The position numbers were made by a program, and so were the translations under genes. Under the pieces are notes generated by a model. It was not told the DNA's origin. It searched no databases and worked only from the letters and a program-made list of their open reading frames with translations. A stretch of 59,444 nt of DNA from Mycoplasmoidaceae bacterium (GTDB lineage: Bacteria; Bacillota_I; Bacilli_A; Mycoplasmatales; Mycoplasmoidaceae), in assembly GCA_045599065.1 (NCBI GenBank), contig JAZRVJ010000041.1, positions 1 through 59,444 of the forward strand. Direction: 5' to 3'. Positions 43,670 to 59,444 of the stretch are shown one piece after another (the stretch's first letter is position 1; every line of letters begins with the position of its first letter).

Positions 43670-45805
43670 TTAACTGCCTTGTGGAAAGACAGAAACTTTT
43701 TTAGTCTTAAGATCGAAACTTAAATTGTATTTTGTATTTTTCTTTAGACTTCCAGAGATTATTTCATTAGCCAAAATATTTTCAATATTTCTTTGGATGA
43801 ATCTCTTGATTGGCCTTGCACCGTAGTTTGGATCATAAGCTTCTTTTGCTACAAAGTTGATGATTTTATCATCAAATTCAACTAAATAATCTTGTTCAGT
43901 TAAACGCTTAGATACATCTTGTAATTGCGTTTTAACAATTTCATGAATGTGTTTTTCATCTAATGCATTAAAGACAATGATTTCATCAATTCTATTAATG
44001 AATTCTGGTTTTAATCTTGCTTTAACTGCTTCTAAGACTTTGTCTTTTTTATTTTCAAGCACGTACTCGCCACCTATGTTACTAGTCATTATGATAATTG
44101 AATTCTTAAAGTTAACATAGCGTCCGTGGCTGTCTTTAAGTTGACCATCGTCAAGCACTTGTAATAAAATGTTTAAAACATCAACGTGAGCTTTTTCGAT
44201 TTCATCGAATAAGATAACTGAATATGGTTTTGTTCTAACTGCTTCAGTTAATAAACCACCTTGATCAAATCCAACATATCCTGGAGGTGCACCAATTAGT
44301 TTTGCAACTGAATGTTTTTCCATATATTCAGACATATCAAATCTAATCATTTGTTTTTCCGAATCAAACATATTTAAAGCTAATGCTTTAGCTAGTTGTG
44401 TTTTACCTACACCAGTTGGTCCAAGAAATAAGAAAGAACCAATTGGTTTATTAGGATCATTTATACCTGCTCTACCTCTTAAAACCGCATTAGCAACTAA
44501 GTCAACCGCTTCATCTTGACCTTTAACCATTAGTTTAATATCTTGTCCTAAATTATTCAATTTAGTTTGTTCAGATTGAAGCAATTTATTTAATGGAATA
44601 TTTGTTGTTGCGGAAATAACCTCAGCTACTTCATTAACAGTTACACTATCTGAGAAGTTGTGACCAGCAGAAGTTTTCTCAAAAACTTCTTCTAGTTCTT
44701 TAAGTTGTTTTTGCTTTTCAGGAATTTCTACATAAAGCAATTTAGAAGCTTTTTCAAATTCACCGTCAGCTTGTAATCTTTCTGCTTCAAGTTTTTTATT
44801 TTCAATAAAAGATTTAAGATCATTAATCTTTTTATGTTCTTCTTTATTTTTATTTCATTCGGCTAATTCTTTATCTTGAACTTTTTTAAGTTCATCTAAT
44901 TGTCCTGTAATTTCTTCTAACGACTTTTTAGATTTTTCATCTTCTTCTTTACTCAAAGCAGCTTTAGCTGTTTCAAGATAAATGATTTGTCTGTTTCTTT
45001 TATCAAGTTCAGGAGGTAATGAATGGAACTGAGTTTTAACTTTAGCAGCAGCTTCATCAATTAAATCAATAGATTTATCTGGTAAATATCTATCAGAAAT
45101 ATATCTATCAGATAAATTAACTGCTGCAACTAAAGCTGAGTCATGAATCTTAACTTGGTGGAATAATTCTCATCTTTCTTTTAGACCACGCATGATTGTT
45201 AATGCTTCTTCTTTAGTAGGTTCTACTACTAAAATCTTTTGCATTCTTCTTTCTAGTGCTGCATCTTTTTCAATATATTGTCTATATTCATTAATAGTTG
45301 TAGCACCAATGACTTTTATTTCCCCGCGAGCCATCATTGGTTTTAAAATATTAGCGGCATCCATAGCAGAACCACCCGAGGTTCTACCTGCACCAACCAA
45401 TTGATGAATCTCATCAATAAATAGAATAATGTTGCCATTAGATTCTTTAATTTGTTTCACAACATTATTTAATCTTTGTTCAAATTGACCTTGGAAGCTT
45501 GCACCCGAAATTAAACTAGCTAAGGATAGTTCCCAGACCTCTTTACCAATTAAGTTGTTTGGAACGTCTTTTGCTACTATTCTAGCAGCAAAGCCCTCAA
45601 CAATAGCAGTCTTACCTACTCCAGGTTCGCCGATTAATACTGGATTATTTTTAGTTTTCCTAGAAATAATTTCGATTAATCTTCTTATTTCTTTTTCACG
45701 ACCAATAATAGGGTCAACTTTGTTGTCCCTAACATCTTGGGTAATATTACGCCCAAATTGTCTTAGGGCATTTTCATCATCTGGTTTTTGATAACTAAAT
45801 TCCAT
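43670..45805 (-). CDS. clpB: ATP-dependent chaperone ClpB (short form lacking the N-domain)
   Basis: Pieces 43670..44740 and 45170..45805 share one frame, giving 711 aa. It has two AAA+ modules ([16 protein letters not shown]) with a coiled-coil between them. Confidence 0.93.
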
Positions 45806-45870: not shown

Positions 45871-45932
45871 TTATATTTTGTTGAGTTTTATTATATATAT
45901 ATATATAATAAAAGTGAGGGAATTAAAAAAAT

Positions 45933-47132
45933 ATGAAAAAAATTAACAAGTTAATGCCATTTTTGGGTGTTGGTATAGCTGGTGTGTCTCTTGCTCCAGT
46001 TATAACATTAACTTCATGTGGCGAAAAAGTTCGAGAGGTAAAAAACGCAGCTGAATTACGTACTGCTCTTCAAGACACAACAATAGGTGCTATTAGTCTA
46101 AAAAACAGTATACGGATTACAGATCTTGCTGATACTGAGAATGCTTCAGCATTTACAATTAATAGGCCTGTTAAAATTTATGGTAATGGTAATATAATTG
46201 ACGTAAGCGATGAGACTAGAATATGCACTAGCAAAAATAGATCTGTGTTTAATATTGACGTAAGTAAAGAAAAACGAGGTAATATTGTCTTTGACAATCT
46301 TAAAATCTATCTAGAGGCTTCATCTATAGTGTCATCAACAATTATTGCTAATAATATTCAAGGTAGTCATTTAAAATTTAATAAATGCACTGTTAAATCA
46401 AATTGGCAACAAGGTGGAACATGGAAAAGATATTATGCACTCAGAATTGAGCGACATAACATTGAAGAGAGCACTATTACGATCGAAAACGAATCCGATT
46501 TTGAAGGATGAGCAGCTATTTACAATCTTGGTAGTAAGGTTCGTTTAACAGCGAGAAATTCTAAATTTATTGGTGTTAATGATTATGAGTTTAGTGCAGA
46601 TGCTGAATTTGGTACAATTATAGCGTCTGATCATCCTGTTTATATGCCAGGATGATCTGGCTTGGATGCTCACTGCTTTAGTGCTGATAATGATTTTAAA
46701 TTTACATCATGCACAATCGAAGCTCAAACTACATATTATGCCGCTGGGGCGGAAGTAAATCCAATGTATCAATTACTTGTTGCAAATAGATCTGCCGCAA
46801 ACAACACAGTAACTGTTGATGAAAGTTGCACATGCACAAGAAATTTGAAAGCTTCTAGTCCTTTCTTTGATACTTGGTTTGCTACGATTGATCCTAATCG
46901 ATGCACTAGTTATGATAGTACAATTACAGTGGATTTAATTAACAATTATAGTGGTTCTGATAAACCTAGTGATTTTCCTGAAAATATAACTAGTGTTGCT
47001 GATGATTATTTTGGTTACTACGCAACAAGAGACAAACTATCTAAAATAATTGTTCCAGATAAATGGGGCAAAACAAGACATAATGGCCTTCATGGAATAA
47101 ATAGTGATCTTGTATTCATTCCACACGAATAA
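45933..47132 (+). CDS. lipoprotein with predicted right-handed beta-helix-like repeats (unknown function)
   Basis: Pieces 45933 and 46662 share one frame (TGA joins). It has a signal peptide plus lipobox (VITLTSCGEK). The N-terminal pattern AAELRTALQD..ISLKNSIRI..INRPVKIYGNGNIIDV and recurring short beta-strand-like segments fit a beta-helix. Confidence 0.6.
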
Positions 47133-49285: not shown

Positions 49286-51652
49286 ATGAAAAACCAAACT
49301 AATAAAAATTTATTAATCACTAGAGGAGTGATTTGCTACCCTAATGTTGCTAAGACAATAGAGATAGCAAGAGATATTTCTTTAAAAACAGTCCATGATG
49401 CTTATGATCATGGTAAAGAGATATTGATTACTGCGCAAATCAATCCTAAGCTAGATGAAGTTAAAAAGATCGATGAAATCTATAACATCGGTGTTTTAGC
49501 TAAAATTGAAAAGATCGAACTTAAAGGTAATGAAATGGCTTTGACAATTATGCCAAAGTCAAGAGTCTTACTAAATGCTATCTATATAGATAGCAACAAG
49601 AAACTAATTAAGGCTGACTATACCTTAATTAATGACTCTCAACTATACAAAATAGACGAATCAAAAGAATTTGACACTTTATTAGAATTACTAGTTAGGT
49701 ATGACAACAAGTTAGCAGCAAGAATCAAAAACATTGTTGTAGATCATGAAAAACAAGGTAAAACAGTAGACTTCATAGACTTAGTCTATGAAATAGCTAA
49801 TGCTTTACCTGTTCACTTTGATCAAAAGCAACAAATTCTTGCCTTGAATACTTTGCCTTTAAAGATTGATGCTTTAAATGGTATGTTATCTAATCCTAAT
49901 GATTTATCTAAAGTAGAAAAAGAAGTTAACCGTAAGCTTAATGAAAGCTTAAATAAACAACAAAGAGAGTTCTATCTAAGAGAAAAGATGAGAACAATTA
50001 AGGAGGAATTAGGTGAAATTTCTTCTACAGCTAATGATTCAACAAAGTTTAGAGCAAAATTAAGATCTAATCCTTATCCTAAAAATATTAAGGAAAAGCT
50101 TGAATCAGAAATTAACCATCTAGAATCTTCTAACCCTCAAGAAAGTTCAATGATTAGAACTTATATTGAATGATTATTAAATCTTCCTTGATGACAAGAA
50201 AATAAAGACAATGATGACTTTAGTAAGGTTAAAAAGACTTTAGATGCATCCCACTATGGATTAACTAAAGTTAAAGAAAGAATTATTGAATACTTAGCAG
50301 TGAGAGCTAAATCAAAAAACACTAAAGCACCAATTATCTGTTTAGTTGGTCCTCCTGGTGTTGGTAAATCATCATTAGCTAAATCTATTGCTGATGCTTT
50401 AAATAAACCATTTGTAAAGATGGCTTTAGGGGGTGTTAAAGATGAAGCTGAAATTAGAGGTCATAGAAGAACCTATTTAGGTTCTATGCCAGGTAGAATT
50501 ATAAAAGCAATGAAAAAAGCTGGTGTAGTTAACCCGCTATTCTTGCTTGATGAAGTAGACAAGATGTCTTCTGATCAAAGAGGTGATCCTGCTTCAGCTA
50601 TGCTTGAAGTTCTTGATCCAGAACAAAACTCAAGATTTAGCGATAACTATATTGAAGAAGATTATGACTTATCTAAAGTTATGTTCGTAGCTACTGCAAA
50701 CTATGCAGAACAAATTCCTGCTGCATTGTATGATAGATTAGAAATTATTGAACTTACAAGCTATACAGAACTTGAAAAATTAGCTATTGCTAAACAATAT
50801 CTAATTCCTAAAGTTTTAAAAGATTGTGGTTTAAGCAAGAAAGATCTAACTTTCAAAGATGATGCTTTAATGTTTATGATTAGACACTATACATTAGAAG
50901 CAGGCGTCAGAGAACTTGAAAGAATCATTAGAAAGATAGCAAGAAAGTTTGTAGTTGAACAACTATCTAATAAAAAGATTCAACCAAAGACTATAGATAT
51001 CAAGGAAGCTAAGTTCTATCTTGACAAGGAAATTTATGAATATACCTTAAAAGATAAAGAAGGTATTCCAGGTGTAGTTAATGGTATGGCATATACTTCA
51101 GCAGGTGGTGACTTACTTCAAATTGAAGTAACTCACTTCAAAGGTAAAGGTAATGTTAAGATTACTGGTAACCTAAAAGAAACTATGAAGGAATCAGCTG
51201 AAGTTGCTTTAGGTTTTGTTAAAGCTAATGCAAAGAAATTTGGTTTAGATAAAGTAGACTTTAGTAAAACCGATATTCATATCCATGTTCCAACAGGGGG
51301 TATACCTAAAGATGGTCCATCAGCTGGTGTAACATTGACAACCGCTATTATCTCCGCTTTAAGTAATAGACCTGTTAAAGCTACATTATCTATGACAGGT
51401 GAAATTACCTTAAGAGGTAAAGTCTTAATCATTGGTGGAGTAAAAGAAAAGACTATCTCTGCTCACAGAGGTGGAGTAAACACAATCATTATTCCTGCAA
51501 GAGATGAAAGATTTTTAAAAGATGTACCTAATGAAGTCTTAGACAACATTACAGTACATCTAGTTGAAGACTACGAAGAAATCTATTCAATTGTCTTCTT
51601 AAACAAAGTCTTGAAAAAGACAAGAACAATTGTTGGCAAAAACTCTAAATAG
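49286..51652 (+). CDS. lon: ATP-dependent Lon protease
   Basis: Pieces 49286 and 50300 share one frame, giving 788 aa. It has Walker A (GPPGVGKSS) and the protease Ser motif (PKDGPSAGV). Confidence 0.96.
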
Positions 51653-52205
51653 CTTTTGCACACACAGTAAAGGTATAGGTGTTACCACCTATGCCTTTTT
51701 GACATTCATAGGTATCTTTACCATCTGTGTAAGCTAAGTTATTTTTTACTTCAATAAGTTTTCAATTATTAAAATCTGGTGCTTTACCATATTCATTGAA
51801 ATAACACTTATAAAAGCTTTCTTTGCTTACTCATAGTAATAGAAAGAACAAAGGATCTTGATGGGTTTCAAATCAAGCTCTTTCTGAGCTAGAAAAGTGT
51901 TTAGAAGCTATCTCTTTATAGTTTGTAGGTACATCACTGTTAGCTTGAGCATCTATACCTACAAATCATTTAGCAATAAAGATCATGGTGCTTCCTCTTG
52001 GATGAGTTACAGAGAAGTATCATTTTTGTTTATCTGTAACAATTTGATTGTTACAAATAATAGCATTTTGTAAGTTAAATGATTTGATAAAGTTAGATAG
52101 TAATTCATTCTTACTATCAGTTTGTACTTTTCTTTTTTCTGTCCCTATAAGATTCTTATCATAATCTTTATGAACTAATCTACAATCTAAAAAACTTCTT
52201 CCCAT
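51645..52205 (-). CDS. 4'-phosphopantetheinyl transferase, Sfp-type (divergent)
   Basis: I extended piece 52020..52205 by hand through 5 TGA codons to TAG at 51645-51647, giving 186 aa. Motifs YFSVTHP, VGIDAQ and WVSKESFYK fit (V/I)G(I/V)D ...~40 aa... W(S/C/T)xKE(S/A)xxK. It has its own TATAAT and a GGAG 6 nt upstream of the ATG. Confidence 0.6.
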
Positions 52206-52231
52206 ATTGACTCCGATATATTTATTATAGG

Positions 52232-52258
52232 AAAATAAAAAAGCCGCTAAAGCGGCTT
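52232..52258 (-). terminator. rho-independent terminator ending the LRR surface-protein operon
   Basis: The minus strand reads AAGCCGC-TTTA-GCGGCTT followed by TTTTTTATTTT. It begins 3 nt after the gene A stop. Confidence 0.75.
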
Positions 52259-52261
52259 AAT

Positions 52262-54373
52262 TTATTGGGGGTCGTTATATCCTCATTTGTGTTGGTTAAA
52301 GTATCAATCTGCTGGACCACCGCTACCTATAGATGTTTTTGTCTCTTGGAATACACGTTCAAAAGCACCCTCAGCAACATTCGATAATGCAGTTGGGTCA
52401 ATTATTAAATGTTGATATGGGCCAGCTCAAGGTGTATCTTCGCTAGGATCTCCTGTTTGTGTTGTATCATCCCTAATATCCAAGTTCACACAACCATTAA
52501 ATAAATAAGCACACGCATATTTTCCATATTGAACATCTGACACAGTTGGGAATGTATCTAATATTATTGGATCAGTAGAAATAATTCCCTCACAACCAGA
52601 ATACATATATGCATAACAATAGTCAGCTGCAACATTAGTTGGTAGCATATGTGCCACGGTTAATGCCACACAATCTTGATACATATTTCTACAACAGCTA
52701 TCAGCTAATGTAACATTTCCACTATCGGGAAAAGATGGTGCTGTTGTCATTGCTTCGCAGCCCTGAAACATACCATAATAACAATAAGGGGCAAGGGTAT
52801 GCGCACCAAGCCATGAAGTGGATAATGCATCTTCAATGCCAAGTTTTTCACAAAAGGCAAACATTTTGTAATAACATCCTGTAGCCAATACATCAACACT
52901 AAGTTGAGGAATTTCAGTTAAAGTTATACAATGATAAAACATATATCTAAAACAATATGGTTGTAACGAAGTTGCACCAATTGTAGGTAAACCTTCATCC
53001 GTAAGTGCTTCGCAATTATAAAACATTGATTCGTAACAACTAGTTGCCGTTGTAGTTGATGGAAGATTTGGGGCTTTCTCAAGGTTTTTGCAACCATAAA
53101 ACATTTCTTGATAGCAATTATATGCTTCTGTAGTAGCATCTCCAATATTAGCATTTAATTCTAAATTAGATGCATCAACAAGTGCATTACATACAGAAAA
53201 CATATTTGCATAACAAAGTGGTGCTAATTTAGTTGCAGGTAATAGTGCATCGCCTAATATTTTCAAATTTGAACAATTTGAAAACATTGCACAATAACAC
53301 CCATAAGCCAATGTATCTGCTTTATCAAATATTCCACTATCTAATTCAACAATACCAGAACATCCTTCAAACATTCCGTAATAACAATACATTGAAAGTT
53401 TAGAAGCGTTCAGCAAGTTTTTAGGGACTGTTTTAAGGCCATGGCAACCCATGAACATTCCTGCATAGCAACATGTACACCCTACCCCAGGTTCAGAACT
53501 TCCAACAAATAAATCTTGCGCTGGTAGTAATGATTTTGGGAAGTCGGTTAATCTTGTACAATCCGAAAACATATATGCGTAGCAATATTTTTTCAAAGTC
53601 GTTGCTGGTAGGAAATTAGATGAAATAGAAACTATTCCGGAACATCCTTCAAACAATTTATAGAAACAATAATCGCTTGGAATCTCGGTCATTTTTCCTT
53701 TACCATCATCAAGTAATGTCATTACATTACCTGTTAAACTAACAGATCCACCAATCGAGAATGACGTGTAATCAGTTTCGGAAGTACTAAAAACATATTT
53801 TCCAGTCTCCTCATTGAAATTGTTACCTCTAAAATATAACACTGACCCTGATGAAATGTTAAGTACTTGACCTTCTTCGTATGGTGTTCAAGTAATTCCA
53901 TTAGTTGAAAATGATATATTAGGAACAGTAGTACCATGGTTGACAATAGATACTGTAGAATTTTCAATTGCTGATAAACCTACGCAGTCACCTAGTTCAA
54001 TATCATTTTCAAAATATGGGTACACTTCCATCCCATCATCAGGAATAATATAGTCATCCTCAATCCTAACAAATTTACCTGCCGATATTTTTCTCATTCA
54101 ATAAGTGACTACATATTGGTTTTTATATGCTAAAGGTGTGGACACAGTGCAAAATTGTCTTCCTGCCTTCGCTCTTACGGTTGTTGAACCAGACCAAGTA
54201 ATTTTTTGAGCTTCTTCTTCGTCTTTTGGTAAGAATTTGATAGTGACATATGAAGCAGTTTTAGGATCTGATGATTTTTCGTTTGATTTATAGCTATTGC
54301 ATGAGGAAACAGTAGCTAAAGTTGTGGTAGCTAACGGTGCTAATAGTATGGAAATTAATATTTTTCTTTTCAT
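52262..54373 (-). CDS. lipoprotein A: Cys-rich LRR-type repeat surface protein (703 aa)
   Basis: ORF-track pieces 54098..54373, 53888..54097 and 52427..53842 share one frame and are joined by TGA. I extended the 3' end through 3 more TGA codons to TAA at 52262-52264. It has a signal peptide plus lipobox (LATVSSC). It carries 14 copies of C-[YF]-x-x-[ML]-[FY]-x-x-C. Confidence 0.8.
52490..53668 (-). repeat. protein-level tandem array of 14 Cys-rich repeats of about 23-30 aa inside gene A
   Basis: Motifs in order: CFYKLFEGC, CYAYMFSDC, CYAGMFMGC, CYYGMFEGC, CYCAMFSNC, CYANMFSVC, CYQEMFYGC, CYESMFYNC, CFRYMFYHC, CYYKMFAFC, CYYGMFQGC, CRNMYQDC, CYAYMYSGC, CAYLFNGC. Many are preceded by LPA(T)xL. 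Confidence 0.85.
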
Positions 54374-54382
54374 TATAAACTC

Positions 54383-56707
54383 CTAATTGCAATAAACATA
54401 ATATTGAGATGTTGGTGTGACAAATGCAGTTGTAAGAGCATCATCATAAGTAAACATGTTGTAAACATAATAATGTGTTGGTTGATCTTTATCATCAACA
54501 TATTGTGGGCATCGTCAGAAATATTTTGATGGTCTGGTTCGACTCTCGCCAAATTTTTGTCTTGTTCTACTAGCAACACTAGCAAATGTTTGAAAACAAC
54601 ACCAATCTGCAAGTGTAGTCAATCCAATTGTACCAATTGAAGTAATGCTTTTGCAATTTTGAAACATTGAGTAATAGCACCCTTTCGCAGCTTCAGTTGC
54701 TGGCAAGCTAGGTGAGGCAGTTAAGGTTGTACATCCCGAAAACATATGTTGGTAACAAAATTCACCTAAAACATTTGCTTCTAATGTGGGTGTTTGAATC
54801 AAAGAAGCACAGCCAGAAAACATACTTTGATAACAATAATTTGTCAAAGTTTTTGCCGGAAGTTTAGGTGCTTTAGTAAGGCTTGAACATTCACTAAATA
54901 AACTAGCATAGCATCCTTTTTTTAGATTTGATGATGGCAAATAATCATCGCTAATAGAAGTAATATATTCATTACCGCTAAACACTTTATTAAAGCAATA
55001 ATCTGTTGGTATATTAGTCATTATGCCTCTACCATCATCTACTAAACTCATAATCGTTCCACCCAATGTGACACTAAGGTTCCCACCAGAAGTTTTTGGT
55101 TTAAAGGTAATATGAGCGTAAGCATCATTTGTTGGTGCACTTAATCCATTAGGATTATTGCCTTTGATGTAATATGTTGTAGATCCTGTTGTCGATCCTA
55201 TATCAATATCTGCGCCTGGTCACATTTTTAATCATGCTTTTCCATCAGTAGAATATTTTAATTCAGGAATGTTTCCTTCCCCTACATAATTTCAACTTAA
55301 AACTGCTGGAGAATCTACTGTTACTTTAGTACATTTATCCAAACTAATTGCTTTTATTTCAATTTGTTTTTCAGCCTTGACACCTGACCCATCTGTGGCA
55401 AGACATGTAATTGTAATTTTTTGTCCTGCGGCTGTTGGTGCAACACCTGTCACAATACCTGTGTCGGGGTTAACTTGTGCAAATCTTGCATCAGAAGATG
55501 TCCATGTTACTCGTTGAGAGTGCCCCTCAGCAATAACTGCATTAAATTTATAAGGATGGTTAACTACACATCCATTAGCAACACTTTCATCTGTGGTAAT
55601 AGTAATGCCGCCTTCAGGGGTAGGAGCATCAATGTTTCAATCATTAGGAATTGAACTAGGCCCTCTTGATCCTGGTGCTGTTCCATTATAAACTATTTCC
55701 CCCGTTGTAGAAACACCCGCTAACCAATTTTCAAAACAATTATCATTAAATGCTTCAGCGCCTAACTTAACAAGATTTAATGATGAACACCCATTAAACA
55801 TGTTAGCATAGCAACCACCAGCAGCATTTGTCGGACTTACCTCTTTTGTTGGAAGGGTAGGGGCTGTCATTAATGATGTACATCCTCCAAACATTCCATC
55901 ATAGCAATGCGGTTGTAGTGTAGTCGCTGGTAAAAATGTATCAGAGATATATTTGATTGCACTGCCACCCGAAAATAAGTGATAAAAGCAATATTCAGAA
56001 CCATTAGGTATTTGTTTGATTGTTCCTTCAGCATTATCGAGCAAACCCATGATATTACCACCTACGTTTACAGCTGCATCAGGTTCTGTGAATGTAAAGT
56101 GTGTGTACTTTGTTGTACTTTCACTGAAACCTAATTCATTATCACCTCGGAAGAATACATTACCACCTGGATTTAAATGAACTGAAGGAGTAACACCTGG
56201 ATCACTAATCTTCGTTCAATGTTCACCGTAGTCAGTTGTTCAACCAATATCTGCGTCGTCACCGCCTTCTTGCACAATATTAATTGTGGTTTCTTCAATT
56301 GCTGCAAAACCAACACAATTGCTTAAAGTAAGAATATTTTCAAAGATTGGATAAACTGTTAATCCATCTGCAGGGATTAAGAAATCATCAGTAAGATCAA
56401 CTTGTTTTCCAGTACCGTCTATATATACTCATTTAGAAAACTTTTGACCTAGCCTTGTTGCTTTTGGTGCTTTTATACTACAAAATTGTCTCCCAACTTT
56501 TGCTCTAACTCTAGTTGCACCCTCAAATACAACATCTGAATCAAGACCTTGAAATAAAACTATTGTATAAGCAGAATTGTCTTGACTATCGTCAACATCT
56601 ACTTTTTGAGTACAGGATGTTAATGTTGCAAGAACAGGAATAGATGCTACAACTAGCGATGTTGTTGCAAGAGAGACAAGTAATTGTTTTAATTTATTTC
56701 TTTTCAT
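54383..56707 (-). CDS. lipoprotein B: two-module Cys-rich LRR-type surface protein with a central Ig-like domain (774 aa)
   Basis: I translated 56051..56428, 55067..55636 and 54383..54514 by hand. All interruptions are TGA (8 in total), with no TAA or TAG until TAG at 54383-54385. The lipobox is LATLTSC. A Big_2-like segment is present (VTWTSSDARFAQVNPDTGIVTGV...ITITCLATDGSG). Confidence 0.8.
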
Positions 56708-56717
56708 GCTTTATCTC

Positions 56718-59423
56718 CTAAATACTCCCATCAATTAAATGTCTTCAGTTATGGCTTGTACCAGGTATATCTTTAAAGTATTCTGTTACATCATCAAAAT
56801 CACCAGCTGAATAAATAATTTTTAAACCATTAGTATAGACAGCAGGTTGTGTTTCGCTATGAACTGAGAATGATAATGCAGTTCGACCATAATAAACGAA
56901 TGTGTCCATAACAACATTAATAGTAATTGTTGCTGTCATGCCTAAACAACCTTGGAAGAAGCCATCACCACCAATATAATTAACACTTGCAGGAATAGCA
57001 AATGGTTTATCAAATGTTAAACAGTTCATTAAGAATCCATCACCTATTGTTCTTAATGAAGTAGGCATATAGAATGAAGTTGTTGCTGTATCACCGTTGT
57101 TAAATAGGGAACAATTTTCCATAAAGTCTTCACCAATATCTCTAATTGTTGATGGAAGTTTTAATTCTTTATTAAAGTTTGAACATCCAGACATAAATGA
57201 ATTACCGATTTGAATACAATGAACTACGTCAGTAGCAAGTGTTGTTGGATCTTCGGCTCCAAATGTTACATTTTGATTAAATCTGATGCATCCAGCCATG
57301 AAATCATCATCAATAAATGAAACTTTAGTTCCAATGTAAACTGGATAATTGAAACCAGTAGTTGCATCTGTTCTAGATATATATTGTGTTGATTGAGATG
57401 AGTTAACTGGTACTAGTTCTACAGTTCCTTCATGACCAGTTGCTTGGCTGTTTCATGATGTAACTGTATATCAACCAGTGTTTTCTCCACTAGTAATATT
57501 GACACATATTTGATCACTATATAAATCAGATTCTCATGGTTCAAGAATTGAAACAGATAAGGTGTTAGATGTTATTTTTGTTGCACCATATGAAGCTGTA
57601 GCAGTAATTGTAACAACACCATGTTTTGCATTAGCAGGGACAGTTAATTGACATTGCGAACCACTTTTTGTAATTTGTACACCTGTACCTGCAGGGTCAG
57701 AAAGATTCCAATCAATAGTATATGCAGTTGTTGCTGGTGTGACTTCAGCAGTAAATGGTAATATTTCTGCTCCAGAACCTATTACATATTCATCTATTCC
57801 ACCAGAAATAACAATTTCTTCTGGATCAACTATCTTAAAGTGAGGATAAATAGTAGGTATAGTTTGAACTTTTGTATTTGCAGGAATTTCTGTTGCAGTT
57901 TGACTATCAGTAGATGTTCAGAAATCAAATTCATATTCAGGATGACCTGTAACATGAATATTTTGTGACAATGGTAAATCGCCTTCGATTTCACTAAATG
58001 TTTTATCATAATCTACAGTAAGTGGTTTAACACCATCAATTACAATAGTACCACTTCATTGTGTAGATGCAGCAGATGGAGTTACTGTAGCTGTCTTTTG
58101 TGTAACAACCATGTTAACTTCAACAGGTTCAACATCAAAGTCAGTAACATCTACATTAAATTTATAGTTACCTGCCTCAGCATTTGTTCAACTTAAAAGA
58201 CCTTCATCGCCCGTTTGAACATCACCAATATGCAACCAAGCAGGAAGTGTCGCTGGTTCAATTGGTGTTAAAACCCAATTAGCATCAGTAGAAACAATTT
58301 GATCAAACTGATTGTAAATTTCTCACCTATCGCTATCATAAGCTGTCTCGGCATTATTACTTTCAGTATTTATGTATGTTGATCCATCATGAATATGATA
58401 TTCTAATTCTGTGTCTTTTCATTTTGGAATTATGACTGTGTTTTTTGTGAATACATCATTATCTTGTGGCTCTGTTCCTGGTTCACCTTCGGCGTTAGGA
58501 TATGTCCAACAATCAAATTCTCTATGAGAAGATTCAGCTGCTGGAATAATTTCAGCAACAGGAGCATATGGTTTTAAATCAGCTCATGTTGTTACTTTTT
58601 GTGCTTCATTTGCTGATTCATCACCCATAATTACAGTAAATTCAGTTTGACCTAAAAGTGTAACAATATCATCATCATCTTCTTTATAAGGCTCAAAATT
58701 AACTTTTACTGTTGCTTGTGCAACAACTAAATCTAGAGTTGTTGAAGCAGAAACTGTTTTGCCTTCAACCGTAGCTGTACCTGTAATAGTAATCTTGTAT
58801 GGATCATCACTATAAGGCACATTTGCTTCACATGTAACAACACCTGTAGCAGAATCAATTTTAAAATATGTTTCAAGGCCTTCTCTTGTTCATGTAACAC
58901 CTTGTGTAATTGGAATTTCATTAACTACTAAGTGGAATGGATCATCGCTAAAAGTTGTTCTAGCTTGATGGTCAGTTAAAGTTATTAATGATAAACCGCC
59001 AGTCACCTTAGTTTCTGTCTTTAATTCATACACAGCAGTTATAGGAACTGCTGGGTCAACTTCATGACTTGGATCAACATCCCCATTACTTGTTACTCAT
59101 TTTTGAAAATTATAACCGTCCTTGATAGGTCTAGGAAGTTCACCATATGTTGTTCCTTGTTTAACAACTAGTTCAGTTGCGGGAGATGTTTGTCCTTCGA
59201 TGTGTCCACCATTTAAGTCAACAGTAATAGTAACTGTTCCTTGTCCGTGTGGCATCATTGCAAAATAAATTGCAACACCAGAAGCACCAGCTGTAGCAGC
59301 TAGACCTCCTGCTAAAGCAGGAATTCATGCTTTTGATGGTCCTGATAATATTTGTAATTTATATTTTGTCTTATTTAATAAGTTAAAGTACTTTTCAAGG
59401 TCTTTTAGATAGTACTTATCCAT
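56718..59423 (-). CDS. surface protein C: signal-anchored protein with Listeria-Bacteroides-type repeats, Ig-like domains and a C-terminal BspA-type LRR (at least 901 aa)
   Basis: I translated 57300..58583 and 58821..59423 by hand. There are 13 in-frame TGA codons and no TAA or TAG until TAG at 56718-56720. ATG 59423 gives MDKYYLKDLEKYF... with a TM helix (WIPALAGGLAATAGASGVAIYFAMM). The frame is still open upstream to the window edge, so the true start may lie outside. Confidence 0.75.
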
Positions 59424-59444
59424 TTTTCTTTTTTGACTAGCTTT

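What the first reader, a model, noticed from the sequence alone, without database searches (positions are those of the whole stretch)
52490..53668. Unusual repeat family: LPA(T)xL-x3-C-[YF]-x-x-[ML]-[FY]-x-x-C, 14 tandem copies in gene A
Each unit of about 23-30 aa carries two invariant Cys residues 8 residues apart around an aromatic/Met core (CYYGMFEGC, CYANMFSVC, CYESMFYNC and so on). That makes 28 repeat cysteines in an extracellular mycoplasma lipoprotein, which is striking for a lineage whose surface proteins are usually Cys-poor.

The periodicity and the Leu/Pro pattern indicate an LRR-like solenoid. The motif differs from DUF285 (W-D-vs-V..mF) and from the BspA LRR_5 repeat seen in gene C. 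From memory, similar CY..MF.GC..L...P.LPATTL repeats occur in uncharacterised LRR proteins of Bacteroidales and their phages. That is a recollection, not a search result.

If it holds, it points to inter-phylum exchange in a shared mucosal niche. The high TGA usage shows the genes have resided for a long time in a table-4 host.
Basis: partly seen in the sequence, partly recalled or inferred. Interest (0 to 1): 0.7.

Follow-up and report, generated by a model that had tools for sequence, protein, structure and literature searches.

The report
Double-cysteine BspA-type LRR surface lipoprotein
The cysteine-rich repeats are real, but they are a divergent copy of a very common leucine-rich-repeat surface module found in rumen and gut Bacteroidales, other code-4 Mollicutes, a Clostridia genome and a phage, so the finding is a sound observation of an ordinary, largely auto-annotated protein family.

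Summary
Gene A (window 52262-54373, minus strand, genetic code 4) is a 703-aa lipoprotein. It has 13 strict C[YF]xx[ML][FY]xxC units and one degenerate unit, exactly at 52490-53668. Shuffles predict 0.004 units. The cysteines are conserved in 12 orthologs.

The repeat is not a new kind of repeat. More than 49,000 cluster representatives match the profile. Canonical members carry perfect 26-aa units (AP-E-LPATTLA-xx-CY-xx-MF-x-GC-TSLT). They pass Pfam LRR_5 (BspA type) at 50-78 bits and hit the solved LRR_5 structure 4fs7. Gene A misses LRR_5 and only just passes NCBIfam TIGR02167 (the "26-residue/PARCEL" repeat).

The second Cys is the canonical LRR_5 ladder Cys. The first replaces the conserved Ile of "IG..AF..C". 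Single-Cys losses to A/S/G or S/N/D/T are common, so buried packing ladders are more likely than obligate disulfides or metal sites. This could not be measured.

The recollection about Bacteroidales and phages holds: rumen Paludibacteraceae MAGs and one real tailed phage carry the module. The C-B-A cluster is syntenic beside lon-tig in three further Mycoplasmoidaceae genomes. Its codon usage matches the host, and a conserved Trp is encoded by TGA. This points to an old transfer between phyla. The protein is probably an adhesin. Interest is low to moderate.

The parts
52262..54373 (-). Gene A CDS (703 aa plus stop; code 4; 5 TGA-Trp codons), identical to P0001
   Evidence: Table-4 ORF call and translation. 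The identical protein is in the database as P0001.
54299..54373 (-). Signal peptide and lipobox (MKRKILISILLAPLATTTLATVSS-C25)
   Evidence: Direct reading. There is a weak sub-threshold match to NF045726, the Vmc-like lipoprotein signal peptide (13.2 bits against a cutoff of 19.3). Orthologs have the same SC/SSC lipobox.
54005..54250 (-). N-terminal beta domain (aa 42-123), resembling a Listeria-Bacteroides repeat
   Evidence: AF2 strands at aa 42-120 with pLDDT 80-90. No Pfam hit in A. The neighbouring gene C has Flg_new at 27.8 bits. The resemblance is an inference.
53669..53992 (-). Beta-sandwich 'N-cap' module with an Asp-box-like S-x-N-G-x-T-W motif (aa 128-235). It always precedes the LRR block in this family.
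   Evidence: AF2 strands at aa 131-214 with pLDDT around 88-93. An HMM of this module finds 233 copies in 119 family proteins. W162 is conserved and encoded by TGA.
52490..53668 (-). Array of 14 double-Cys LRR units (aa 236-628): 13 strict C[YF]xx[ML][FY]xxC units and 1 degenerate
   Evidence: pLDDT is 85-98 in the repeat cores. The Cys are invariant or nearly invariant in 12 orthologs.
52265..52489 (-). C-terminal tail (aa 629-703), poorly conserved and modelled with low confidence
   Evidence: pLDDT is below 50 for aa 637-654 and 684-703. The alignment is variable there.
52241..52258 (-). Terminator-like hairpin (AAGCCGC-TTTA-GCGGCTT followed by TTTTATTTT), 3 nt after the stop codon of gene A
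   Evidence: The number of such sites in the region is no higher than in shuffles, so function is inferred from position only.
54383..56707 (-). Gene B CDS (774 aa lipoprotein), a paralog of A with two [N-cap + double-Cys LRR] modules. Block 1 is about 55787-55990, followed by a C-cap at about 55631-55738. A Big_2-like domain lies at about 55388-55520. Block 2 is about 54575-54997.
   Evidence: Big_2 scores 21.1 bits, below threshold. Orthologs sit in syntenic positions in L002-L004.
56718..59423 (-). Gene C (at least 901 aa; the frame is open to the window end). It has an N-terminal TM segment, Flg_new (59085-59231) and classical LRR_5-type repeats with Ile at the position of the first Cys (56937-57215).

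Best explanation
Gene A encodes a surface-anchored lipoprotein of an uncultured code-4 Mycoplasmoidaceae bacterium.

Architecture:
- signal peptide and lipobox
- a small beta domain
- a beta-sandwich 'N-cap' with an Asp-box-like motif
- a 14-turn leucine-rich-repeat solenoid

The solenoid is a divergent member of a very large sub-family of BspA-type (Pfam LRR_5) / 26-residue-repeat (TIGR02167, DUF285, 'PARCEL') surface repeats. The canonical unit of this sub-family is AP-E-LPATTLA-xx-CY-xx-MF-x-GC-TSLT, 26 aa long.

In each turn the second Cys is the classical LRR_5 ladder Cys. The first Cys occupies the position of the conserved core Ile of the LRR_5 'IG..AF..C' motif.

Inferred, not shown:
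- Both Cys form stacked, buried, small-residue ladders that pack the solenoid core. They are not obligate disulfides or metal sites.
- The hypervariable x positions flanking them form the ligand-binding face.
- The protein acts as an adhesin or binding protein on the cell surface.

The module was exchanged between rumen or gut Bacteroidales and Mollicutes long ago, possibly by phage. The Bacteroidales, where the family is richest, are the more likely donors. The module then duplicated into paralogs A and B before the four known Mycoplasmoidaceae carriers diverged.
For: Real repeat with conserved Cys.

Size of the family and its regular 26-aa unit:
- At least 1,790 hits in the first protein search.
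- 49,707, 29,135 and 10,690 cluster representatives at E<=1e-3, 1e-10 and 1e-30.
- 2,056 units from 115 proteins, with 26-aa spacing in about 85% and the first Cys present in 90%.
- The top representatives carry 5-70 double-Cys units.

Relationship to LRR_5:
- Canonical members score 53-78 bits against the 27.7 cutoff, and orthologs P0005 and P0007 score 28.7 and 27.9.
- 5 of 13 orthologs match at E<=0.01.
- P0058 repeats hit the solved structures 4fs7 (5e-8) and 4gt6 (3.5e-5), with the first Cys aligned to the Ile of 'RIGGSLFYNC' and 'FIGEEAFESC'.

Relationship to TIGR02167: gene A scores 30.2 against a cutoff of 30, and 12 of 13 orthologs match, the best at 3e-15.

Fold:
- AF2 pLDDT 78.7, with repeat cores at 85-98.
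- The top PDB Foldseek hits are all LRR proteins.
- There are 12 significant BFVD hits, led by '26-residue repeat', 'Leucine rich repeat 5' and 'BspA family' phage proteins, down to 8.5e-11.

Cys as packing residues: of 124 units that lack a Cys, 115 lack only one. The first Cys is replaced by A, S or G. The second is replaced by S, N, D, A or T, the usual alternatives at an LRR ladder position.

Adhesin role: family members are fused to the fimbrillin-like Mfa_like_1 domain of type V pili (P0058 49.5 bits, P0065 70.7 bits). BspA-like proteins are known adhesins and TLR2 ligands (PMC4206474, PMC5476646).

Transfer and age:
- The genome scan finds 3 Mycoplasmoidaceae MAGs, about 18 rumen Paludibacteraceae/Bacteroidales loci and 1 Anaerovoracaceae locus.
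- A phage (L001) carries a three-module copy between its portal and protease-capsid genes.
- C-B-A beside lon-tig is syntenic in L002-L004. Lon is 83-84% identical while A is 44-46%.
- GC3 of A is 0.21, within the housekeeping range of 0.17-0.22, and 5 of 7 Trp codons are TGA, including the conserved W162.
- All Mollicutes copies form one clade in an N-cap tree.
Against: Gene A itself gets no Pfam LRR_5 hit at E<=1 and only 13 bits for DUF285. Its TIGR02167 score passes by 0.2 bits with no individually significant stretch.

The A1 profile does not reach any solved LRR_5 structure. Foldseek against the PDB gives no hit with E<=1e-3, and TM-scores are 0.13-0.30.

The confident AF2 model shows almost no DSSP strands in the repeats. 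A single-sequence model of the LRR domain was poor, with pLDDT 51.9.

Burial of the Cys and the absence of S-S bonds are inferred from alignment and substitution patterns only. Loss of the two Cys is moderately associated (odds ratio 6.4, p=7e-5), which a pairing interaction would also predict.

The adhesin function is inferred from relatives. The direction of transfer rests on diversity and a midpoint-rooted NJ tree.
Confidence: 0.72

Rival explanations
1. The paired cysteines are functional as pairs. Each turn would carry an intramolecular disulfide staple, or a stacked thiolate metal site, giving a ladder that stabilises or redox-switches an extracellular solenoid.
For: Both Cys are about 90% conserved across more than 2,000 units and invariant in most positions of 12 orthologs. 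Loss of the two is positively associated, with odds ratio 6.4. The spacing is a constant C-x7-C.
Against: 93% of the units that lack a Cys lack only one (115 of 124). The replacements are small or ladder-type residues (A/S/G; S/N/D/T), as expected for packing positions. The second Cys is the ordinary LRR_5 Cys and the first aligns with a buried Ile. The carriers identified by name are mostly rumen anaerobes. From general knowledge, the rumen is strongly reducing and Mollicutes have no known Dsb-type oxidation pathway. Intracellular CC-type LRRs such as FBXL2 also have two buried Cys per 26-aa unit without disulfides; this is only an analogy, as the match is weak (E=0.24).
Confidence: 0.13
2. 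The array is a PARCEL element in the sense of Roske et al. 2010. That would make it a palindromic, mobile, repeat-coding DNA element that spreads as DNA and was inserted into a lipoprotein gene.
For: NCBIfam TIGR02167 ('PARCEL repeat-containing surface protein') matches gene A at its cutoff and 12 of 13 orthologs. The distribution is patchy and horizontal, and includes phage. PARCELs were described as horizontally distributed and linked to mobile elements (PMC2996958).
Against: No periodic dyad symmetry and no DNA-level tandem array was found in A or B. The units are only 60-79% identical over 40-54 nt. There is no long ORF on the opposite strand. The repeat always travels as part of a complete module (N-cap plus LRR, with or without a C-cap) rather than as a bare repeat. 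The locus is syntenic and matches the host in codon usage in four genomes. The DUF285 signature is absent (Pfam 13 bits).
Confidence: 0.08
3. There was no transfer between phyla. The similarity between the Mollicutes and Bacteroidales proteins would reflect convergence of simple repeats, or vertical descent from an ancient common LRR protein.
For: Repeat proteins can converge and inflate scores. The NJ tree has no outgroup.
Against: The similarity (33-39% identity, E down to 1e-77) extends over the non-repetitive N-cap beta-sandwich as well as the repeats, covering residues about 128-640. The same three-part module occurs in Bacteroidales, Mollicutes, an Anaerovoracaceae MAG and a phage. The genome scan found only three Mycoplasmoidaceae species, and two other code-4 lineages carry it.
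Confidence: 0.05

Closest known systems
BspA-type / TpLRR leucine-rich repeats (Pfam LRR_5, PF13306; solved examples 4fs7 and 4gt6; prototype Tannerella forsythia BspA)
   Same: Both have the 'aF-x-G/x-C-x-s-L-t' core and a Pro after the strand, and both are extracellular surface proteins of gut and oral anaerobes. Canonical members of this sub-family pass the Pfam threshold and align to 4fs7 and 4gt6. Function is probably binding or adhesion.
   Different: The period is 26 aa (26-28 in gene A) rather than about 23. The 'IG' of LRR_5 is replaced by 'CY', giving a second Cys ladder and a Tyr ladder. There is a conserved LPATTL segment. The array is flanked by an obligatory N-cap beta-sandwich and, in canonical members, a C-cap. 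Gene A itself falls below the Pfam threshold.
26-residue surface-protein repeat / DUF285 / PARCEL (TIGR02167, PF03382; for example Mycoplasma mycoides LppQ; PMC2996958)
   Same: The period is the same (25-26 aa) and both share the 'MF-x-G-C-x-s-L' half-unit. Both occur in mycoplasma lipoproteins and in phages and are distributed horizontally. TIGR02167 matches A at its cutoff and 12 of 13 orthologs. The best Foldseek matches are viral '26-residue repeat' proteins.
   Different: The other half of the unit differs: LPATTLAxxCY here, against the W/D-TS-V-t-M signature of DUF285. The first Cys is absent from that family; the PARCEL paper never mentions cysteine. No DNA palindromy was seen here. 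Pfam DUF285 scores only 13 bits.
BspA-like surface protein family of 'Candidatus Mycoplasma girerdii' (26-28 copies; PMC4206474, PMC5476646)
   Same: [quoted passage not shown] They were discussed as host-adaptation and adhesion factors. They set a precedent for this kind of protein in mycoplasmas.
   Different: Those proteins were found with the LRR_5 model and described as classical TpLRR proteins, mostly with C-terminal TM anchors, and some are phase-variable through dinucleotide repeats. Here there are two or three syntenic lipoprotein genes of the double-Cys 26-aa subtype, and no simple-sequence switch was seen.
Cysteine-containing (CC-type) LRRs of F-box proteins (FBXL2, PDB 6o60)
   Same: Both have a 26-aa unit with two conserved Cys per unit. 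In FBXL2 the protein is cytosolic, so those Cys would not be disulfide-bonded (general knowledge). It is the only PDB sequence hit of the A1 profile.
   Different: The hit is not significant (E=0.24). Those proteins are eukaryotic and intracellular and have a different consensus. This is an analogy, not demonstrated homology.

Membership tests
Pfam LRR_5 (PF13306, BspA type) | The protein scores at or above the gathering threshold (27.7 bits) | tested here: not met
   Gene A has no LRR_5 hit at E<=1 or at E<=0.01. Gene C scores 27.3 bits.
Pfam LRR_5 (PF13306, BspA type) | Significant homology to proteins that do pass the threshold (transitive membership) | tested here: met
   Gene A hits P0002, P0009, P0042, P0058 and others at E of 1e-96 to 1e-160. 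These score 53-78 bits on LRR_5. Orthologs P0005 and P0007 score 28.7 and 27.9. Five of 13 orthologs match at E<=0.01.
Pfam LRR_5 (PF13306, BspA type) | Sequence similarity to solved LRR_5 structures | tested here: inconclusive
   Canonical relative P0058 hits 4fs7 (5e-8) and 4gt6 (3.5e-5). Gene A's repeat region and the A1 profile do not reach them.
Pfam LRR_5 (PF13306, BspA type) | A unit of about 23 residues with 'IG..AF..C..L..I.IP' | tested here: not met
   The unit is 26 aa (26-28 in A), with CY in place of IG and an inserted LPATTL segment.
NCBIfam TIGR02167 (Liste_lipo_26, 'PARCEL repeat-containing surface protein') | Score at or above the curated cutoff (30 bits) | tested here: met
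   Gene A scores 30.2 bits (E=2.7e-7), a marginal pass with no individually significant stretch. Twelve of 13 orthologs match at E<=0.01, the best at 3e-15. Gene B scores 13.1 bits and does not pass.
Pfam DUF285 (PF03382) | Score at or above the gathering threshold (25 bits) | tested here: not met
   Gene A scores 13 bits, E=0.09. Some distant family members pass, for example P0065 at 27.7 bits.
PARCEL (Roske et al. 2010) | Repeat-coding DNA with periodic dyad symmetry, often with an overlapping ORF on the opposite strand | tested here: not met
   There are no periodic inverted repeats in 52262-56710, no tandem DNA array and no long antisense ORF. The method differs from the MEME palindrome search used in the paper, so the test is weaker than theirs.
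LRR solenoid fold | The predicted structure is a repetitive solenoid that matches LRR structures | tested here: met
   The AF2 model has periodic pLDDT of 85-98. The top PDB hits are all LRR proteins, but they are weak (E>=0.012; TM 0.13-0.30). BFVD hits to LRR_5, BspA and 26-residue-repeat proteins are significant, down to 8.5e-11.
Bacterial (mycoplasma) lipoprotein | N-terminal signal peptide ending in a lipobox Cys | tested here: inconclusive
   Reading the sequence gives MKRKILISILLAPLATTTLATVSS-C25, and orthologs have the same pattern. The only model hit, NF045726, is below its cutoff (13.2 against 19.3). No dedicated lipoprotein predictor was available.
Disulfide- or metal-ladder repeat proteins | The Cys pairs are geometrically able to bond and are lost or kept together | tested here: inconclusive
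   Geometry could not be tested because no model coordinates are accessible. In co-variation, 115 of 124 units lacking a Cys have lost only one, although the association is positive (odds ratio 6.4).

The most novel reading that the evidence does not exclude
The double-Cys 26-residue unit defines a distinct LRR class, an 'LPATTL-CY-MF-GC' solenoid with its own N-cap and C-cap. Its two stacked thiol ladders would be functional, for example as redox-sensitive staples, metal or thiol-reactive sites, or Cys-Tyr chemistry. The module would circulate as a phage-borne binding cassette among Bacteroidales, Clostridia and Mollicutes of the herbivore gut.
Probability: 0.1. Interest if true: 0.6.

Novelty: new variant of a known kind. 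Interest (0 to 1): 0.3.

Why it matters
The result explains a striking-looking cysteine-rich repeat as a sub-type of the BspA/LRR_5 and 26-residue-repeat superfamily. That sub-type is extremely abundant in gut and rumen metagenomes, yet no paper in the searchable library describes it.

Three points have modest value:
- The sub-family has a clean 26-aa consensus, an obligatory N-cap and C-cap, and tens of thousands of members. It is only patchily detected by the LRR_5, DUF285 and TIGR02167 models, so a dedicated model would improve annotation.
- It is a well-documented old gene transfer between phyla into a code-4 Mollicutes lineage. The gene now matches the host in codon usage, is syntenic in four genomes, and encodes a conserved Trp with TGA. 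A phage carrying the same module is a plausible vehicle.
- It gives candidate adhesins for uncultured Mycoplasmoidaceae.

None of this overturns current understanding.

Tried and rejected
- Sequence search of gene A's repeat region against the PDB found only a chance-level GPCR hit. The A1 profile against the PDB gave only FBXL2 at E=0.24.
- Foldseek of the full-length model against the PDB gave no hit with E<=1e-3. It supports only the general LRR fold.
- A second AF2 run on the LRR domain alone, without an alignment, reached pLDDT 51.9. It was judged unreliable and was not submitted to fold search.
- Model coordinates are not exposed in /data, so S-S distances could not be measured.
- The listing of cluster members returned almost no names or organisms.
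- tblastn against the cultured-phage collection found only remote hits (23-29% identity) to tail proteins of Klebsiella, E. coli and Listeria phages. There were no Bacteroidales phages and no double-Cys copies.
- Searching the literature for the motif strings (LPATTL and others) found nothing relevant.
- Searching for the habitat of the Mycoplasmoidaceae MAGs was not conclusive.
- TRF and repeat scans found no DNA-level arrays or palindromes. On that basis the 'PARCEL as DNA element' reading was rejected.
- Chance or low-complexity origin was rejected by the shuffle test.
Full report
**1. Observation**

The window is read with genetic code 4. Table-4 ORFs of 150 aa or more sum to 20,061 aa, against 10,082 aa with table 11.

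Gene A lies on the minus strand at 52262-54373 and encodes 703 aa starting MKRKIL. It carries 13 strict copies of C[FYC]xx[ML][FY]xxC, spaced 26-37 aa apart. A 14th, degenerate copy, CAYLFNGC, lies at 52490-52513. The finding's coordinates, 52490-53668, run exactly from the first Cys codon of unit 1 to the last Cys codon of unit 14.

In 20,000 shuffles of the protein the motif occurs 0.0036 times on average and never more than once. In all six frames of the window it occurs 20 times: 13 in A, 6 in B and one stray.

Gene A is 4.96% Cys, the highest of all ORFs of 250 aa or more. The other such ORFs outside A, B and C average 1.6%.

At the DNA level the units are only 60-79% identical, and there is no tandem array or periodic inverted repeat. 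The repeat is therefore old and kept at the protein level.

**2. Conservation**

Twelve full-length orthologs (39-48% identity, 653-741 aa) align over the whole protein. Nearly every repeat Cys is invariant or at least 90% conserved. The refutation criterion 'cysteines not conserved in orthologs' is not met.

**3. What the repeat is**

Pfam finds nothing significant in gene A; DUF285 scores 13 bits, E=0.09. NCBIfam TIGR02167 ('Liste_lipo_26 / PARCEL repeat-containing surface protein') scores 30.2 bits against a cutoff of 30. It matches 12 of the 13 orthologs at E<=0.01, the best at 3e-15. LRR_5 matches 5 of the 13.

A search of 5.8 billion proteins returned at least 1,790 relatives. A profile search of 1.84 billion cluster representatives returned 49,707 at E<=1e-3, 29,135 at E<=1e-10 and 10,690 at E<=1e-30.

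Most relatives are proteins of 850-6,000 aa with strikingly regular 26-aa units. From 2,056 units the consensus is AP-E-LPATTLA-xx-CY-xx-MF-x-GC-TSLT. Spacing is 26 aa in about 85% of cases and the first Cys is present in 90%. The 137 best new representatives carry 5-70 double-Cys units each, with a median of 24 units and a median Cys content of 4.3%. The Cys richness is a family trait.

Canonical members pass Pfam LRR_5 (BspA type) clearly. P0002 scores 77.9, P0050 77.4, P0058 60.3, P0009 55.2 and P0042 53.3 bits, against a cutoff of 27.7. The Mycoplasmoidaceae orthologs P0005 and P0007 only just pass, at 28.7 and 27.9. Some members also pass DUF285.

The repeats of P0058 hit the solved LRR_5 structures 4fs7 (E=5e-8) and 4gt6 (3.5e-5). 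In those alignments the second Cys falls on the canonical LRR_5 Cys, and the first Cys falls on the Ile of 'RIGGSLFYNC' and 'FIGEEAFESC'. The neighbouring gene C has classical units with Ile at that position (DIGEDFMENC, TIGDGFLMNC) and scores 27.3 bits on LRR_5.

The repeat is thus a 26-residue, double-Cys sub-type. It sits between LRR_5, with which it shares the core and the fold, and the 26-residue DUF285/TIGR02167 repeat, with which it shares the period and the MF-x-GC-x-x-L half-unit.

**4. Structure**

An AF2 model built on the 13-sequence alignment has mean pLDDT 78.7 and pTM 0.74. The repeat cores reach 85-98. There are two N-terminal beta domains, at aa 42-120 and aa 131-214, and the tail has low confidence.

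Foldseek against the PDB gives only weak hits (E>=0.012, TM 0.13-0.30), but the top ones are all LRR proteins: LGR5, TLR9, SHOC2 and the Nogo receptor. Against predicted viral structures there are 12 significant hits. They are led by 'Bacterial surface protein 26-residue repeat' (8.5e-11 and 9.7e-9), 'Leucine rich repeat 5' (2.3e-8) and 'BspA family leucine-rich repeat surface protein' from uncultured tailed phages.

The LRR-solenoid reading is supported. A single-sequence model of the LRR domain alone was unreliable, with pLDDT 51.9, and was not used.

**5. What the cysteines do (inference)**

I identified units by flanking hydrophobic positions that do not include either Cys. In the non-Mollicutes proteins, 1,643 units have both Cys, 89 lack only the first, 26 lack only the second and 9 lack both.

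The first Cys is replaced by A, S or G. The second is replaced by S, N, D, A or T, the usual alternatives at an LRR ladder position. So 93% of losses are single, although the association between the two losses is positive (odds ratio 6.4).

Three further points bear on this. The first Cys is equivalent to a core Ile. The named carriers are mostly rumen anaerobes. Cytosolic CC-type LRRs offer an analogy, but only a weak one, because FBXL2 is the only PDB hit of the profile and its E-value is 0.24.

Taken together, the most likely role is two stacked, buried small-residue ladders that pack the solenoid core. A disulfide or metal ladder is less likely but not excluded.

**6. Architecture, context and probable function**

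Gene A reads, in order:
- a signal peptide with lipobox (VSS-C25)
- a small beta domain
- a beta-sandwich 'N-cap' with an Asp-box-like S-x-N-G-x-T-W motif
- 14 LRR units
- a variable tail

A terminator-like hairpin follows the stop codon.

Gene B (54383-56707) is a paralogous lipoprotein with two [N-cap + LRR] modules. It also has the canonical C-cap (CFENWLAGVSTTGE...IPNDWNI) and a sub-threshold Big_2 domain. Gene C (56718-59423 or beyond) has Flg_new and classical LRR_5-type units.

An HMM of the N-cap finds 233 copies in 119 family proteins. The unit of inheritance is therefore the whole module, not the bare repeat.

Several Bacteroidales members fuse the module to the fimbrillin-like Mfa_like_1 domain of type V pili (P0058, P0065). 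BspA-like proteins are known adhesins and TLR2 ligands, and 'Ca. Mycoplasma girerdii' has 26-28 of them (PMC4206474, PMC5476646).

I therefore propose that A, and also B and C, are surface adhesins or binding proteins. The hypervariable x positions around CY-xx-MF-x-GC would form the binding face. This is an inference.

**7. Distribution and transfer**

A scan of one genome per GTDB species found full-length orthologs in three Mycoplasmoidaceae MAGs, at 43-45% identity. It also found about 18 loci in rumen Paludibacteraceae and Bacteroidales MAGs from sheep, goat, yak, buffalo and cattle. These are 33-39% identical over residues of about 128-640, which includes the non-repetitive N-cap. One locus is in an Anaerovoracaceae MAG and carries 13 units.

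NCBI names for cluster members are 'leucine-rich repeat protein [Paludibacteraceae / Bacteroidales bacterium]'.

IMG/VR contig L001 is a real tailed phage. It encodes a terminase large subunit, a portal, a protease-capsid fusion, a tail terminator and a major tail protein by PHROGs. Between the portal and capsid genes it encodes a 964-aa protein with three modules and 11 strict units.

In all three Mycoplasmoidaceae MAGs the order C-like, B-like, A-like, then convergent lon and tig, is the same as in the window. Lon is 83-84% identical, Tig 57-61%, A 44-46% and B 39-42%. A and B are therefore fast-evolving paralogs that were already present in the common ancestor.

GC3 of A (0.209) and B (0.182) lies within the housekeeping range of 0.17-0.22. 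Five of the 7 Trp codons in A are TGA, and 8 of 11 in B. These include the conserved W162 of the N-cap. This can only have arisen after the gene settled in a code-4 host.

In an NJ tree of the N-cap, all A and B copies cluster in one clade of 29 tips with three further proteins, P0023, P0031 and P0064. P0023 and P0064 are encoded in other code-4 genomes: they have 12 and 8 in-frame TGA codons, and the ClpB beside P0023 is 58% identical to the window's.

The simplest reading is a single old transfer between Bacteroidales and Mollicutes, followed by diversification. The Bacteroidales are the richer pool and so the more likely donor. Phage is a plausible vehicle. The direction is inferred, not shown.

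**8. Comparison with known families, and novelty**

Gene A works like a BspA-type LRR adhesin. It is homologous to LRR_5 and to the TIGR02167/DUF285 repeat. It fails the LRR_5 and DUF285 thresholds itself and passes TIGR02167 by 0.2 bits.

It differs from LRR_5 in four ways:
- the period is 26 aa rather than about 23
- CY replaces IG
- there is an LPATTL segment
- the array has obligatory caps

It differs from DUF285/PARCEL in half of the unit and in lacking DNA palindromy. The PARCEL paper never mentions cysteine.

I found no paper that describes this sub-type, but its members are routinely auto-annotated as leucine-rich repeat proteins. I therefore rate it a new variant of a known kind, and gene A a divergent member of it.

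The finding is a correct observation whose 'unusual family' interpretation does not hold. Interest is low to moderate.

Noticed in passing
L001:3916-6810 (IMG/VR UViG_3300045988_074285): A tailed phage encodes a 964-aa protein with three complete [N-cap + double-Cys LRR + C-cap] modules. The gene sits between the portal gene and the protease-major-capsid fusion gene. That is an unusual place for an adhesin-like protein, and its only PHROG match (phrog_9915) has unknown function.
   Followed up: partly
window 54383-56707 (-): Gene B is a two-module paralog of A. It keeps the canonical C-cap of the Bacteroidales and phage modules (CFENWLAGVSTTGE...IPNDWNI) and has a sub-threshold Big_2 domain between the modules. 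The first unit of each block has lost the second Cys (CFYHLFSGG, CFNKVFSGN).
   Followed up: partly
window 56718-59444 (-): Gene C appears to have an N-terminal TM segment rather than a lipobox. It has Flg_new (27.8 bits) and classical LRR_5-type units (27.3 bits, just under the cutoff). The reading frame is open to the window end, so the true start is uncertain.
   Followed up: partly
window 45927-47132 (+): Another predicted lipoprotein carries a Pectate_lyase_5 'putative pectate lyase-like adhesive domain' (43.1 bits). It is a second candidate adhesin in the window, with 8 Cys in 400 aa.
   Followed up: no
window 51645-52256 (-): The small ORF immediately downstream of gene A is a 4'-phosphopantetheinyl transferase (ACPS, 46.3 bits). 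It is absent from the equivalent position (A, then convergent lon) in the three syntenic MAG loci L002-L004.
   Followed up: partly
L006:3820-6384 (Anaerovoracaceae MAG JAZQQK010000050.1): A Clostridia-class MAG (locus GC 42%, table 11) encodes an 854-aa secreted protein with 13 strict double-Cys units. The module is therefore present in a third phylum-level lineage.
   Followed up: no
L025 and L027 (ENA ERZ920188, ERZ27280567, ERZ27279875): Two further code-4 (Mollicutes-type) genomes, with locus GC of 28% and 33%, carry multi-module copies with near-perfect 26-aa repeats (P0064, P0023). L027 has two such genes flanking the rpsL-rpsG-fusA genes.
   Followed up: partly
search hits P0129-P0144: Giant family members of 2,500-6,000 aa carry up to 70 double-Cys units, that is 140 repeat cysteines in one protein. 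Their organisms and genomic context were not examined.
   Followed up: no
window 45453-45479 (+): A single stray match to the motif (CFTTLFNLC) lies in a frame antisense to the ClpB-like gene. It is isolated and looks like chance.
   Followed up: yes
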